Shown in pieces: positions 41,429 through 50,400 of a stretch of DNA of 64,000 bases. The notes beneath the pieces were generated by a model that worked only from the letters and a program-made list of their open reading frames with translations, did not search any database and was not told the DNA's origin. Position numbers and translations under genes: made by a program. The number at the start of each line of letters is the position of its first letter. The first letter of the stretch is position 1. Origin of the DNA: Amoebidium appalachense (Eukaryota; Protista; Ichthyosporea); NCBI GenBank assembly GCA_963693365.1, contig CAVNZM010000002.1:1054001-1118000 (forward strand), written 5' to 3'.

Positions 41429-44400
41429 ATGGGCCCTACATTAATGGCAAGGGGTGAGTGTTCTAGACGTCACACACATACACACACACAAACGCACACG
41501 CACAAACACGCGCAAACGCAAACACACGCATACGCTCGCACACACACACGCACACACACGAACACACGCACACACACACACGCACACACACACACACACA
41601 CACACACATGCACGCACATACATGCCGAAAAGATCTTGCTGCCGGCGTTGAGGGGACAAACAAATAAAGCTCAGCGCTGGTGTGCATGTACACAATCAAA
41701 ATGAAACACAAAAACTCGATGCCACTGGACGCAAGGGACACACACACACACATACACACACACACATGCACAACACACGTGCACACAAAGGCACACACAC
41801 ACACACACATACCATGCCCACGCCCACGCCCACGCACGCACACACACACACACACACACACACACACACACACACACACACACACACACACACACACACA
41901 GACATACCCACACGCACAGGCACACGCGTGCGCGCGCGCACACACACACACACACACGCACACTCACACAAAAACGCACACACAAGCACACACATACACA
42001 CACACAAAAGCCCACCCGACAGACACACAACAGACACAGCTGTACAGGCAGAAACCTGAAATTAATTACACACTAACACCACGAAAAAAGACCGCCCCCC
42101 CCCCCCCACCCAACCCCGATCCACCCAATGCACCTTGAGTCATCACGGACATATCGAACTCAACCCCAAAGGGGACACACATGCACCAGCCCCGCCAGAG
42201 GATCTCGCGTTTCAAACAACCCACGAAAGCCACACGCATACGTCCTTGGAGTCCAAATTGTAAGGCATTCGAGATCAATTACTCACCCACCCGCGTCACA
42301 TTAGCCCCACCCCCTCCCCCCCTACCCCCTCCCCCCCCCCCCCTCCCCCCCCACACACACATCCTCCCCTCCCCTCCCCCCCTTTTGGAACCAAACATAC
42401 GCGTGCACACACACACACTCACACATGCTTATCTCCCCACCCCACCCCTCTCCCCCCCCTGGGCGCTCGCCCCTCCAACCTATCCCCTCTCCCCTACTTA
42501 TGATGCAAACTTTCTCCCCCTCCTCCCCCCCCCCCCCCCCCCCCCCCGGAATCAAACACACACAGGGCTTGGAGTTCTCCTGGTCATCCTTTTTATTTGG
42601 CCGGCTTCGGCCCAACCTGCCCTCCAGCTAGGCGCCGTCTATCCAACCACAAGTGCAATTGCTGACAAGGCAAAATGGGCTGTGTTTGGCACTCGTATGG
42701 CACTGAAAAATGCGGATAAATTCATCGATAGGAAACAGAGTCTGAATATGACCCTGTATGATGATGGAAGTGATGCGAGGAAAGGGATTTTTGCTGTGTT
42801 GGATGCAGTCCAGAAGAAGAACAGTGTGGGGATACTTGGCGCCTATAACAGGTGCGTGTGTCTATAACAGGTGTGTGTGTGTGTGTGTGTGTGTGTGTGT
42901 GTGGGGGGGGGGGGGGGGGGGGGTATGTGCGTGTAATTTTTGTGTTTGTGTTGTGTATGTCGGACGGCGCATGTATGTGTTTGTGTGCCCTACTTATGTG
43001 TTCGTGCAATGTTCTTGATTTCATGCCCTTGAACCTGCAGGGGCACGCAGGCGCGTGCACACAAAACACACACACACACACACACACACACACACACACA
43101 CACACACACACACACACTTCCTTTGTCGATTTTTCTCCTTCCCCCTCGTCTGGACCTATAAAAATGTTCCATTTTCGTTTAAATACAAGAACAGCCCCCT
43201 CCCCCCCCTCCCCTCCCCTCTGGATCCTGCATGCAATGCATGCCCGGTTTGTGTGCTCTGCATTCTGCATCGTGTTGTCCGTCATGAATTTTTACTTTAC
43301 ACATATAACACTTTTCAAACCTAAAACACTCCCCCCCCTCCGTCTTCCCCCTCTTCCCCCTCCTTCAGGACACACCCCTGTTCTCTTTCACAAAAAAACA
43401 AAAACGAACAAATAGTGCCGATATAAAGGCTGCCACAAACATGCATCGTCTAAAAGCAATGATATGAGCCCCTCAGAGCAAAACCGCAGGCATACGTGCG
43501 CAAGGTCTGCCTATTCAACCCCCCCCCCCCCCCCCCCCCTTCCCCCGCTACTCCGCCTCCCTTCCTCCCCACCTGCCACAGACACAACAAACACAGTCAC
43601 ACTCCTCCCACCGTCTATGCCCATCAACTACAACCTAACACACTACACATGCTTGCGTGCACATACACGTACACACGTATCACACGCACACACAGCCTTG
43701 TGTCCCTTGGTGTGAATGAGATTGCCGGCTACTTGGGGGTGGTGGAGGTTTCCTGCTGCTCCTCCAGCCCAACACTTTCCGACAAAGGTAAGTCCCCCCC
43801 CCCCCCCAAAAAAAAAAAAAAAAAAGAAAAAAAAAAAGCTTTTTCTCCATCATAGTTTTTGCCTCCTCTTCCCATAACCCATCCCATATGGCAGATGTCA
43901 CTAAATGTGTTTGGTTTGCATGAGGGAATAGGAGGGGGACGCGAAAGGCGGATGGGGGTTCCTTGAGGAGGAGGAAGGGGCGGGGGGGGGGGGGGGGGGA
44001 GGGGGGGGGAGAGAGAGAGACTTCATGACGTTATACATGCTGACAATGAAGTGATCGTTGCACACACACGAGCACACATCCACACACACACACACGTGCG
44101 CGCGCGCGCACACACACACCAACCCACCTGCCCACTCCCACACGAGTGCGCATGCACGCGAGCACACACACACACACACACACACACACACACACACACA
44201 CACACACACACACACACACACACACACACACACAAATCATTGGTACACATTGAGTTGATGCCTCCCCCCCTCAAAAAATAAAAAAAAAACACCACCACGG
44301 CCACCAATCCATTTATTTCTTTGGATCCCTGTGTCCCAGAATGCTATCTTAAGATGTACCGTGATCTTTTTTGTTTTTGTTTTTGTACTGCTTACTGAAC

Positions 44401-47400: not shown

Positions 47401-50400
47401 ATAATCTTCAGTCTTGTTGTGGGTTCGTGGTGAATGTGGGAGAAGTGGCGACCACGGGAAGAGGGGGGGGAGAGGGGGGGGAAGGGGCGGGGAAGGGGAG
47501 GAAGGTAATCTTGTATGTCCCTGATTACTCCACGAGAGCACAATTCGGAAAAGGTTAGAGACAGTATGTCTGCGTAGCGTAAAGTAACACGATATCACGT
47601 AATGTGTGTGTGTGGGGAGGCTGGCTGGGAAAAAGGGGCTTATGTGCTGCATAGATATACATGGATGTGTAAATAAATACGGACTTAGGTGGGGAAGGGC
47701 AAAACCTCCCGAATGGGGAATTGGGTCCAAATTGAATTAGGGACACTGCAGGGGCTCAACGGCACCCTGAATACTCTTCAGAACATCAACAAGAAAGTAA
47801 GTGCCCTGCCCCCCCCCCCCCCCCCCCCCCCCCCCCCCTCCCCCCCCCTCCCCCCGGTCCCCCTGCAAATGGCTCTCTACTTGTGATACACACTGCCTTG
47901 TGTTGCCTCTCGTGTATTTTTTTACTTTGTAAAGTGTACCAATGAATATCCCCCCCCCCCCCCCCCCCCCCCCCCCTTTCGGCTGGTTCTGAGGACAGGC
48001 TCTACTTTTGCTGCATATTTCGTGTATTTGTCTCCATTCCTGCGCGTGCTCATGACTTAACCGATTGCATTTATTCTAACGGGTCCCACATTTTTATTCC
48101 GCCCCCACTCTTTTCCATGCACATCCGAAGCTTTCCCCATAACACTAAATTAGTAATGGAGTAATGGGTGCTATTTTGTTGTCTGTCGGTCTGGCATAAC
48201 TAACACCCAACAGCTGGCAGCTAGCCTGGCCTTTAGATTGCCAAAGCAAAAAGAGAGGGTGTAAGGTGGCATAATATGAACGATCACAGCAGGAAGACCT
48301 ATTGGGATTGTGGTGCGATTAGAGTAATGTGAGCGAATCACAAACACACGGATTTCAAAGTATCTCTACTCTCTTCTTGTCTCTCTACTCTTATTCCAAG
48401 CTTCCGTCAGGATATAAGATGGAATTAAAAATCCTAAAGAATATGCCCCGCTATACTTCGCAATTAGCATTCAATTGGGTCAGAATCACACACGGCCTTA
48501 CCTGATTGACTGGTTTCATGCACACAGTACTCGCTGGATCTGCAGCCGCAGTGCCTTGAGCTGCCCACATATCTTTCCAACACCAGCCAGTGCTCACTGC
48601 CTCAGGCCGAGGCCCAGAGGATATTGCTGGAGGCGGGATGTGTCACAGGTAGGTGTGTTTGTACGTGTGCATGTGACGTGTCTTTGTGTGTGTTTTGTGT
48701 CTTTGTGTGTGTTTTGGGGTGTGTGTTTGTGCCTGGGCGCAACCACACACAGTGCTTTGTGTGTCTAGGTGTCTGGTTGTCTCAGTGTGGATGTGTGATT
48801 GGAGTGCGTGTGAGTGTGAGCGTGCGTGCGTGTGTATGCATGCACGTGTGCACCTCCCACAACGGGAAAGAAGCATTCAAGAGAAAAGTGGCGCATGGTC
48901 AGTAGCAAGGGGGATGTGGACTGTGCCAGTACTTTAACTTCCAGCCACACACACACACACACACACACACACACACACACACACACACACACACACACAC
49001 ACACACACACACACACACACACACACACACACACACACACACACACACACACACACACACAAAACACACACACACACACACACACACACACACACACACA
49101 CACACACACACACACACACACAGGGGCCTGTGTGCGATGTGGTGTTTGTGCACTTGCTCGGCAGCAGCCGCAGCTCGCTCGTTCCCCCCAGCTGCTGTTG
49201 TTGGACCAGACATACAGGTGTGCGTGTGTGTGGGTGTGTGGGTGGGTGTGTGGGTGGGTGTGTGGGTGTGTATGTGTATGTGTGTGTGTGTGTTGTGTTT
49301 GTTTGTGTGTGTGTGTGTGTGTGCGGATGGATGTGCGTGGGGATGTGTGCGTGCACATAGGCATTTGTGCAAATAGTGCACGTGTGTGTGCATCTGCGTG
49401 TGTGACTGTGTATGTGCACATGTATGCAAGCACCAACATGCTCTTGTACCACACTTTTCGTTCCTTTTCCATCCTATAAAGAGAAAACCCCCTCAGGGTA
49501 CGCAGTCCTCTTTCTCCCGCTTCGTTTTTGGATTCGAAACTTCCAGAAAATATATGCCCCCCCCCCCCCCCCCCCCCTCTCTTCCCCGTTCTTCCTTCCC
49601 CCCCCCCCCCCCCCCCCCAATCCTCCCCTCCTGCACCTACCAAGCCTCTCTCAGGGTCCTGTACTCTTCGACACACCTCAACCGCAATCCCCCACATACT
49701 TTGTGCATCTCCACGCACACAGTCACACGGACATGCACCAACACAAGCGAGCACACGCACACACACACACACACACACACACGGACACACGCGCACGCAA
49801 GCACACGCACGCACACAAACATGCACGCGCGCGTGCGCGTGCGACACCACACACACACACACACACACACACACACACACACACACACACACACACACAC
49901 ACACACACACACACACACACACACACACACACACACACACACACACACACACACACACACACACACACACACACACACACACACACACACACACACAGGC
50001 AAGTGTTTGTTGGTTCCACGGGCCCGTTTGCCGTGACTCCAAAGGGTGACCGGTCCCCCATCGGAGTGAGTTTTGTGCTGCGCAACGTGCACACAGTGAT
50101 CCGCAATGGAACACTGCAACCCACATTTGTGCAAGTGGGATCATTTAGGCTGGTACGAGATCCCTACCCCTCCCCCCCCCCCCCCCCACACACACAAACA
50201 CACAGATACACACGTACGGACCCAGACACACAAACTCACACATGCCCACACATACACACACGCATGCACAGGCACACACACGCACACACAACCCACACGT
50301 TCTTCCGACCCCCCCCCCCCCCCCCCCCCCCCCCCCCTCCTCTCCTTCTCCTCTCGGCCCTTGCCCTGACCCACACTGCTGAAACGTTGCCATCCCCACA

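What the first reader, a model, noticed from the sequence alone, without database searches (positions are those of the whole stretch)
42852..49998. Introns with 5' (GT)n and 3' (CA)n ends that could base-pair and bridge splice sites
Seen: GPCR introns 2 (42852-43695), 10 (48649-49123) and 11 (49218-49998), and the minus-strand P4H intron, have GU-rich repeats near the donor and CA repeats near the acceptor. Known: teleost introns use complementary AC(5')/GU(3') repeats to form structures that reduce U2AF2 dependence. Inference: this is the mirror-image arrangement, perhaps independently evolved.
Basis: partly seen in the sequence, partly recalled or inferred. Interest (0 to 1): 0.7.

Follow-up and report, generated by a model that had tools for sequence, protein, structure and literature searches.

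The report
CA-repeat intron ends, pairing likely incidental
In a likely single-celled relative of animals, nearly half of the introns examined end in CA repeats where a U-rich signal normally sits; the few that also start with GU repeats are predicted to fold end to end, but that pairing is likely a by-product rather than the splicing aid known from fish.

Summary
The three named GPCR introns have exactly the stated ends. Introns 10 and 11 are spliced in an RNA-type contig, and the P4H junction matches a transcript-derived protein. Folded alone, the GU-start/CA-end introns bridge their ends.

The two repeats are not shown to be a coupled system. Among 33 introns, (CA)n runs into the acceptor AG in 15 (p about 1e-14 by position; median 0 U in the last 30 nt). 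Only 4 of these 15 have a GU-rich donor, while 7 have a poly-C donor that cannot pair with CA. Co-occurrence is only a weak trend (hexamer tests p=0.36 and 0.10; energy permutation p=0.23, 0.09, 0.02). Pairing across the exon is just as strong and wins in context folds.

The real feature is a CA-for-pyrimidine 3' end, plus poly-C after many donors, in a likely ichthyosporean. It is most likely an AG-free microsatellite grown from the acceptor CAG and read through from an upstream branch point. A CA-binding 3' splice-site factor is the bolder rival. This is not a member of the fish AC/GT class, and my searches found no description of it.

The parts
41429..56035 (+). Class C (GABA-B/Grl-like) GPCR gene, 18 exons, 17 GT-AG introns, 865 aa
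   Evidence: Open frame across all exons; Pfam 7tm_3 and ANF_receptor on single exons; spliced contig X2 record 1
42852..43695 (+). GPCR intron 2: (GT)16 then G21 at the 5' end, internal (CA)25 (43067-43116), a C run and a degenerate CA tract at the 3' end
   Evidence: Sequence; frame continuity; folds; not checked in RNA
44745..45034 (+). GPCR intron 4: weaker GU/G-rich donor, (CA)5 acceptor
   Evidence: Spliced in X2
48649..49123 (+). GPCR intron 10: degenerate GU over about 200 nt, 175-nt CA tract (48946-49122) running into the AG
   Evidence: Spliced in X2
49218..49998 (+). GPCR intron 11: GU over about 200 nt, (CA)75 (49848-49997) running into the AG
   Evidence: Spliced in X2
36506..38064 (-). 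P4H intron: GU tract about 68 nt after the donor; (CA)37 ending 40 nt before the AG
   Evidence: Junction matches transcript-derived protein P0039
43788..44615 (+). GPCR intron 3: poly-C donor, C run plus (CA)8 acceptor, no GU partner (control case)
   Evidence: Spliced in X2; last 30 nt predicted 0.86 unpaired
45157..45709 (+). GPCR intron 5: the CA-adjacent AG at 45640 is bypassed for a conventional acceptor 69 nt downstream
   Evidence: Loose end of X2 contig
50153..50738 (+). GPCR intron 12: poly-C donor, 107+31-nt CA acceptor, essentially unfolded
   Evidence: MFE -42 kcal/mol; last 30 nt 0.93 unpaired
52593..53083 (+). GPCR intron 15: poly-C donor, 167-nt CA acceptor with no GU partner
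22175..29194 (+). RCL1 gene, 9 exons; introns 1, 2, 4, 5 and 6 end in CA tracts of 48-165 nt; introns 2, 4, 5 and 6 start with poly-C
   Evidence: Open frame; Pfam RTC; no alignment gap at any of 8 junctions against 6 homologues

Best explanation
These are ordinary GT-AG spliceosomal introns in which a U-free (CA)n tract runs into the acceptor AG, and the tract likely acts as an AG-free spacer that grew by slippage from the acceptor's CAG, so that its predicted pairing with the few GU-rich donors is likely a by-product. Shown: the introns, the position, strand bias and contiguity of the CA tracts, and their presence without any GU partner. Inferred: (1) the protected CAG and GTGTGT-like donors seed microsatellite growth, which by itself gives GU at 5' and CA at 3', the mirror of fish; (2) expansions are tolerated because (CA)n adds no AG; (3) the branch point, often with a C-rich pyrimidine run, lies upstream of the tract and the first AG beyond it is used. 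Poly-C just after 12 of 33 donors is a separate positional signal that cannot pair with CA.
For: 15 of 33 introns have (CA)>=3 contiguous with the final G, against 3 ending 4-9 nt away. Intronic tracts are sense-biased, CA 41: TG 12, while DNA outside genes is balanced, 16: 19 (Fisher p=0.003). CA acceptors have long AG-free zones (47-259 nt; median 109 against about 25, medians taken by hand). The nearest CTRAY lies within 50 nt in 9 of 18 other introns but 2 of 15 CA introns (p=0.034). In five CA introns it sits at -32 to -92, at or above the start of the tract. The four GPCR GU tracts start at the donor GT itself. 11 of 15 CA acceptors have no GU donor and 7 have a poly-C donor. A CA-adjacent AG is bypassed in intron 5 where a conventional 3' end lies downstream, and 10 such CA-AG sites inside introns are unused. 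Distant branch points with AG exclusion zones are established (PMC1431707 abstract; PMC5378181 passages).
Against: A branch-like motif in the AG-free zone of CA introns is not above shuffles: CTRAY 5 of 15, p=0.17; YTRAY 7 of 15, p=0.063; YTNAY 11 of 15, p=0.32. GPCR introns 3, 11 and 12 and RCL1 intron 6 have none. AG depletion inside terminal tracts was not significant (2 of 19 against 12 of 65 and 25 of 95; p=0.5 and 0.24). Seeding does not explain the mid-intron CA bias (19:7, p=0.03) or the poly-C donors. All 4 GU donors do have CA acceptors, and one permutation gave p=0.018. All 15 CA acceptors lie in two genes (15 of 25 introns; 0 of 8 in the other four genes), so the sample is effectively small. 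No genome-wide data, lariats or probing.
Confidence: 0.47

Rival explanations
1. The single-stranded (CA)n tract is itself the 3' splice-site signal. A CA-binding protein (an hnRNP L-like factor or a U2AF2 with shifted specificity) would take the place of the U-rich tract, with poly-C or GU after the donor as alternative donor-side enhancers.
For: CA occupies the pyrimidine-tract position with a median of 0 U against 8. It is predicted unpaired, hence accessible, in 9 of 11 non-GU cases. Four CA introns have no branch-like motif in the AG-free zone. The sense-strand bias extends into mid-intron, and poly-C is sharply placed after donors (12 against 1.8 expected, p=1.6e-7). hnRNP L binds CA repeats (PMC5959245 passages).
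Against: CA-AG is not sufficient: it is bypassed in intron 5 and unused at 10 intronic sites. 18 of 33 introns have ordinary U-containing ends. In mammals hnRNP L on CA is mostly described as a repressor in the passages read. No splicing factor of this organism could be examined (no genome).
Confidence: 0.3
2. One reading: a subclass of introns has been selected for 5' GU / 3' CA pairing that bridges the splice sites, a mirror of the teleost (AC)m-(GT)n class, lowering U2AF2 dependence.
For: Isolated folds bridge introns 2, 4, 10, 11 and P4H. Intron 2 has a nested mirror order, (GT)n-Gn ... Cn-(CA)n, which persists when only its flanking exons are added. z = -12.9 (intron 11) and -5.4 (intron 2) against shuffles. 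4 of 4 GU donors have CA acceptors (p=0.033, post hoc; 0.088 within the GPCR). Duplex permutation p=0.018 at 150 nt. Nascent intron 10 bridges (110 pairs) before intron 11 is made.
Against: Fixed hexamer tests give 4 against 3.1 (p=0.36) and 10 against 8.0 (p=0.10). Permutation gives p=0.23 and 0.087 at 60 and 100 nt. Across-exon energy equals across-intron energy (-55.9 against -55.9 at 150 nt; -38.1 against -36.6 at 100 nt). In context, intron 11's GU pairs with intron 10's CA across exon 11 (125 pairs against 2), and introns 2 and 4 pair with the upstream intron. z = -1.2 and -0.9 for introns 10 and 4. Equally long CA tracts need no partner (GPCR 12 and 15, RCL1 4).
Confidence: 0.17
3. The repeats or the gene models are assembly or annotation artefacts.
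For: Tract and homopolymer lengths in assemblies are error-prone (general knowledge); no DNA reads over the tracts were available.
Against: Exons and five junctions match contig X2 with 0 differences. The P4H junction matches P0039. RCL1 junctions are gap-free against 6 homologues. An artefact would not place tracts by strand and position.
Confidence: 0.03

Closest known systems
Teleost/lamprey (AC)m-(GT)n bridging introns (Lin et al. 2016, PMC4691745; abstract, results and discussion read)
   Same: Complementary AC/GT repeats at opposite intron ends; no U-rich pyrimidine tract at the 3' end; predicted end-to-end hairpin.
   Different: Orientation is reversed. The 3' repeat here occurs without a partner in 11 of 15 cases, whereas the fish GT 3' end needed the upstream AC for accuracy. 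Co-occurrence is not shown, and cross-exon pairing is not avoided. CA ends are 15 of 33 introns here, against 0.09-2.3% (AC)m-(GT)n introns in fish.
Distant-branch-point introns with AG exclusion zones (Gooding et al. 2006, PMC1431707 abstract; Taggart et al. 2017, PMC5378181 passages)
   Same: Long AG-free stretch before the acceptor; candidate branch motifs 30-200 nt upstream in part of the introns.
   Different: Here the zone is a microsatellite, is common, and flanks apparently ordinary exons of housekeeping genes. Branch points are not mapped, and motif enrichment is not significant.
hnRNP L / CA-repeat and TDP-43 / UG-repeat splicing elements (PMC5959245 passages)
   Same: CA and UG dinucleotide repeats next to splice sites; UG mostly downstream of donors.
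   Different: Those are regulatory or repressive elements at a minority of mammalian exons. Here CA stands directly in the pyrimidine-tract position of used acceptors, and no binding protein is identified.

Membership tests
(AC)m-(GT)n bridging introns | AC near the 5' site and GT near the 3' site | tested here: not met
   Fish orientation within 40 nt: 0 of 33; within 200 nt: 3 against 2.76 expected. The named introns are reversed.
(AC)m-(GT)n bridging introns | Complementary repeats co-occur above independence | tested here: inconclusive
   p=0.36 and 0.10; p=0.23, 0.087, 0.018; p=0.033 post hoc, 0.088 within gene; n=33.
(AC)m-(GT)n bridging introns | Pairing across introns, not across exons | tested here: not met
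   27 donor pairs: across exon 4 against 3.15 and 6 against 5.93 expected; across intron 3 against 2.59 and 7 against 5.63. Equal duplex energies. Context folds favour across-exon pairing.
(AC)m-(GT)n bridging introns | More stable than dinucleotide shuffles | tested here: inconclusive
   z -12.9, -5.4, -1.2 and -0.9 for introns 11, 2, 10 and 4 (15-30 shuffles each; P4H not shuffled).
(AC)m-(GT)n bridging introns | The 3' repeat needs its 5' partner for accurate splicing | tested here: not met
   By occurrence, not by experiment: 11 of 15 CA acceptors lack a GU donor; intron 3 is spliced; RCL1 junctions are conserved.
(AC)m-(GT)n bridging introns | No U-rich polypyrimidine tract | tested here: met
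   Median 0 U in positions -30 to -4 in 15 CA introns, against 8 in 18 others.
(AC)m-(GT)n bridging introns | U2AF2-independent splicing | not testable with these tools
   Needs depletion experiments.
Distant-branch-point / AG-exclusion-zone introns | Extended AG-free zone before the acceptor | tested here: met
   47-259 nt in 15 of 15 CA introns; partly a trivial result of the repeat.
Distant-branch-point / AG-exclusion-zone introns | Branch point at the upstream end of the zone | tested here: inconclusive
   CTRAY 5 of 15, YTRAY 7 of 15, YTNAY 11 of 15; p=0.17, 0.063, 0.32; no lariat data.
hnRNP L-type CA element | Single-stranded CA tract bound by an hnRNP L-like protein | not testable with these tools
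   Tracts predicted unpaired in 9 of 11 non-GU cases; no genome held to look for the protein.

The most novel reading that the evidence does not exclude
A unicellular relative of animals has rewired 3' splice-site recognition: in about half of the introns of some genes, a protein-read (CA)n tract stands in for the polypyrimidine tract, with poly-C as the donor-side partner signal and a minority GU-donor class that folds onto the CA tract.
Probability: 0.3. Interest if true: 0.8.

Novelty: new variant of a known kind. Interest (0 to 1): 0.5.

Why it matters
The U-rich tract read by U2AF2 is taken as a near-universal holozoan 3' signal. Acceptors preceded by up to 175 nt of pure CA, spliced with no U at all and mostly with no pairing partner, give a natural test of how a spliceosome finds a 3' site without that tract. 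The options are a distant branch point with scanning, a CA-binding factor, or RNA structure. The case also supplies a null model for the fish class: GU-5'/CA-3' is the orientation that slippage from GT and CAG would give unaided, so complementarity alone is no evidence of selection. Gene predictors that expect a pyrimidine tract would misplace these acceptors.

Tried and rejected
No whole genome is held, so the genome-wide co-occurrence test was replaced by a 33-intron test.

Rows left out: a possible intron in the TMEM70-family ORF (62.8-62.9 kb) and intron-like stretches at 32.5-34.9 kb, both without reliable boundaries. DnaJ intron 2 (2186 nt) was not folded, so one search covers 32 of 33. 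One search used the cathepsin intron shifted by one base (corrected from then on). The seven introns of DnaJ, the Cys-rich gene and the cathepsin fragment rest on frame continuity only.

My first model put the intron 5 acceptor at the CA-adjacent AG; the contig rejected it. No holder was on record as RNA: X2 is RNA by guess, though its contig is spliced. All three runs are one sample, and X1 and X3 gave no cover. Contigs show only the main path, so skipping of exon 11 is not excluded.

A search for a full-length GPCR transcript protein found nothing among 2376 candidates. Pfam gave no useful hit on exons 2, 3, 5 and 16 or on the Cys-rich gene. Rfam gave 0 hits in the window. 18 RCL1 loci from metagenomes hold two (CA)3G sites and one CA/TG tract of 5 or more units; their introns were not mapped and they are distant, so this is only a loose baseline.

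C-run/G-run pairing as a general bridge was considered and dropped: most poly-C donors show under 13 end-to-end pairs. Introns 13 and 14 do reach 38-42 pairs without GU. The AG-depletion test was inconclusive.

Five look-ups in earlier scan findings gave nothing relevant. A follow-up paper by the same group on complementary repeats in more species (recalled) is not held and could bear on novelty. One of the supplement files of PMC4691745 was not searchable.
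Full report
Setting. The window is from an intron-rich eukaryote, and no genome is held. The large P4H exon finds an identical transcript-derived protein (P0039) and, as nearest named relative, an Ichthyophonus hoferi gene model at 43% (the species is read from the source's gene prefix). That species is an ichthyosporean opisthokont. The lineage is therefore likely Ichthyosporea, on one gene; the genus is not determined.

Gene models. I built six genes with 33 GT-AG introns: GPCR 17, RCL1 8, a Cys-rich gene 4, DnaJ 2, P4H 1 and a cathepsin fragment 1. Support differs by gene. GPCR introns 3, 4, 5, 10 and 11 are joined in contig X2 record 1 with no mismatches, and its coordinates give exons 6-10 the modelled 502 nt. 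X2 is RNA by guess, and all runs are one sample. The P4H junction matches P0039. None of the 8 RCL1 junctions falls at a gap against 6 homologues. The rest, including GPCR intron 2, rest on an open frame.

Observation. The P4H intron fits loosely, with the CA tract 40 nt short of the AG, and intron 4 is a further weak case. Folded alone, these five give 27-87 expected pairs between the first and last 120 nt.

What is beyond chance. 13 of 41 intronic CA tracts of 10 nt or more end within 10 nt of the acceptor (0.55 expected, p=6e-15). 12 of 53 C runs start within 25 nt of a donor (1.8 expected, p=1.6e-7). TG tracts near donors are 3 of 12 against 1.6 expected (p=0.21). Intronic tracts are sense-biased (CA 41: TG 12; C 53: G 24), whereas 28 kb outside the modelled genes is balanced (16:19; 15:12). 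15 of 33 introns class as CA acceptors, with a median of 0 U in positions -30 to -4 against 8 in the other 18. All 15 are in the GPCR and RCL1 genes; the other four genes have 0 of 8.

Is GU coupled to CA? The defining test in Lin et al. 2016 is co-occurrence across introns but not exons. With hexamers, both ends are positive in 4 introns against 3.1 expected (40 nt, p=0.36) and 10 against 8.0 (200 nt, p=0.10). A threshold-free 33 x 33 duplex permutation gives p=0.23, 0.087 and 0.018 for 60, 100 and 150 nt, and 0.23, 0.19 and 0.074 within the GPCR. Taking the four GPCR GU donors by hand, 4 of 4 have CA acceptors (p=0.033, post hoc; 0.088 within gene). A strict composition cut-off gave 3 of 3 (p=0.030). 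So there is a trend, but not an established one.

Across exons the pairing is as good. In a fold of exon 10 to exon 12, intron 11's GU takes intron 10's CA across exon 11 (125 pairs), and intron 10's GU takes intron 11's CA (96 pairs), an exon-skipping geometry. The two separate bridges are only 12 kcal/mol higher out of about 650, so the states compete. Nascent intron 10 bridges at first (110 pairs) and loses about half once intron 11 begins. Introns 2 and 4 switch to the upstream intron when its 3' end is included, though intron 2 keeps its bridge with exons only. Two of four exceed shuffles.

Most telling, 11 of 15 CA acceptors have no GU donor, 7 have a poly-C donor, and 9 of the 11 keep the last 30 nt at 0.8 or more unpaired. 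These include tracts of 107-167 nt. Structure cannot be the general means of using a CA acceptor.

Mechanism. The tract is contiguous with the final CAG in 15 introns, against 3 a few bases off, and the GPCR GU tracts start at the donor GT. I infer slippage from the two protected splice signals, which yields exactly the mirror orientation. (CA)n adds no AG, so it can grow as a spacer if the branch point lies upstream and the first AG is taken, as in distant-branch-point introns. In line with this, ordinary introns have a close CTRAY (9 of 18, shuffle p=0.002), while in CA introns it is displaced (-32 to -92 in five). In intron 5 a conventional downstream end overrides a CA-AG.

Against it: branch motifs in CA introns are not above shuffles, four have none, AG depletion is not significant, and seeding explains neither the poly-C nor the mid-intron bias. 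That leaves real room for a CA-binding factor. My odds: spacer 0.47, protein-read CA signal 0.30, selected bridging 0.17, artefact 0.03. The first two can be combined (origin by slippage, retention by function).

Comparison and novelty. This is not a member of the fish class: orientation, partner dependence and exon avoidance fail, co-occurrence is inconclusive, and U2AF2 independence is untestable here. It works most like an AG-exclusion-zone intron with a microsatellite spacer. Ten paper searches listed no description of (CA)n acceptors in a protist. Passages of two ichthyosporean genome papers (PMC11244446, PMC5560861) do not mention them. The library lacks most subscription journals and a recalled multi-species follow-up, so absence from print is not established.

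What I saw of each paper: PMC4691745, parts 1-4 of 7 plus a supplement search with one file unread; PMC1431707, abstract; PMC5378181, PMC5959245, PMC9198270, PMC11244446 and PMC5560861, passages only. The labels 'GABA-B/Grl-like', 'RCL1' and 'cathepsin B-like' go beyond the Pfam hits and are partly recalled.

Verdict. Observation confirmed. The bridging interpretation is unproven and probably incidental. The more solid and more interesting feature is the CA-for-pyrimidine 3' end with poly-C donors. Interest 0.5.

Noticed in passing
window, donors of GPCR introns 3, 7, 8, 9, 12, 15, 16, 17 and RCL1 introns 2, 4, 5, 6: Poly-C runs of 14-38 nt start 5-20 nt after the donor in 12 of 33 introns (1.8 expected); unexplained second positional signal.
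   Followed up: partly
window 42843-42880: 19-nt tandem duplication of the exon 2 end and donor, giving a second, frame-shifting donor at 42871 directly ahead of (GT)16.
   Followed up: partly
window 47201-47751 and 53201-54866: GPCR intron 8 has the fish-type order (CA near 5', TG toward 3'). Intron 16 ends in (TG)5-CAG, and its end resembles a tandem repeat unit at about 53850-54030 in the same intron.
   Followed up: partly
window 32500-34900, minus strand: Donor-like sites followed by poly-C, and CA tracts, suggest an unannotated spliced transcript or UTR introns downstream of P4H; no coding frame established.
   Followed up: partly
window 7795-11716: LINE-like element by eye: two long frames (244 and 1078 aa), the second with recalled endonuclease/RT-like motifs, followed by (CA)32 and A48.
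   Followed up: no
window about 13000-14600 and 14600-16200: Two tandem copies of a roughly 1.6-kb repeat-rich block.
   Followed up: no
window about 11925-12070 and 30205-30340: The same short element of about 140 nt occurs twice, each copy near microsatellites.
   Followed up: no
window 60306-61049: Intronless globin-domain frame (Pfam Globin, E 4e-4, below the curated cut-off).
   Followed up: no
window 31255-32384: Papain-family (cathepsin B-like) 3' fragment with one intron; no upstream exons found, possibly truncated.
   Followed up: partly
window 62682-63125, minus strand: TMEM70-family frame interrupted in frame by C and T runs, probably a short intron with a U-rich end.
   Followed up: partly
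window about 61620-61745: Duplicated and inverted segment of about 40 nt between the globin and TMEM70-family genes.
   Followed up: no
window 29056-29061 and 50736-50741: Tandem CAGCAG acceptors at RCL1 intron 8 and GPCR intron 12.
   Followed up: no
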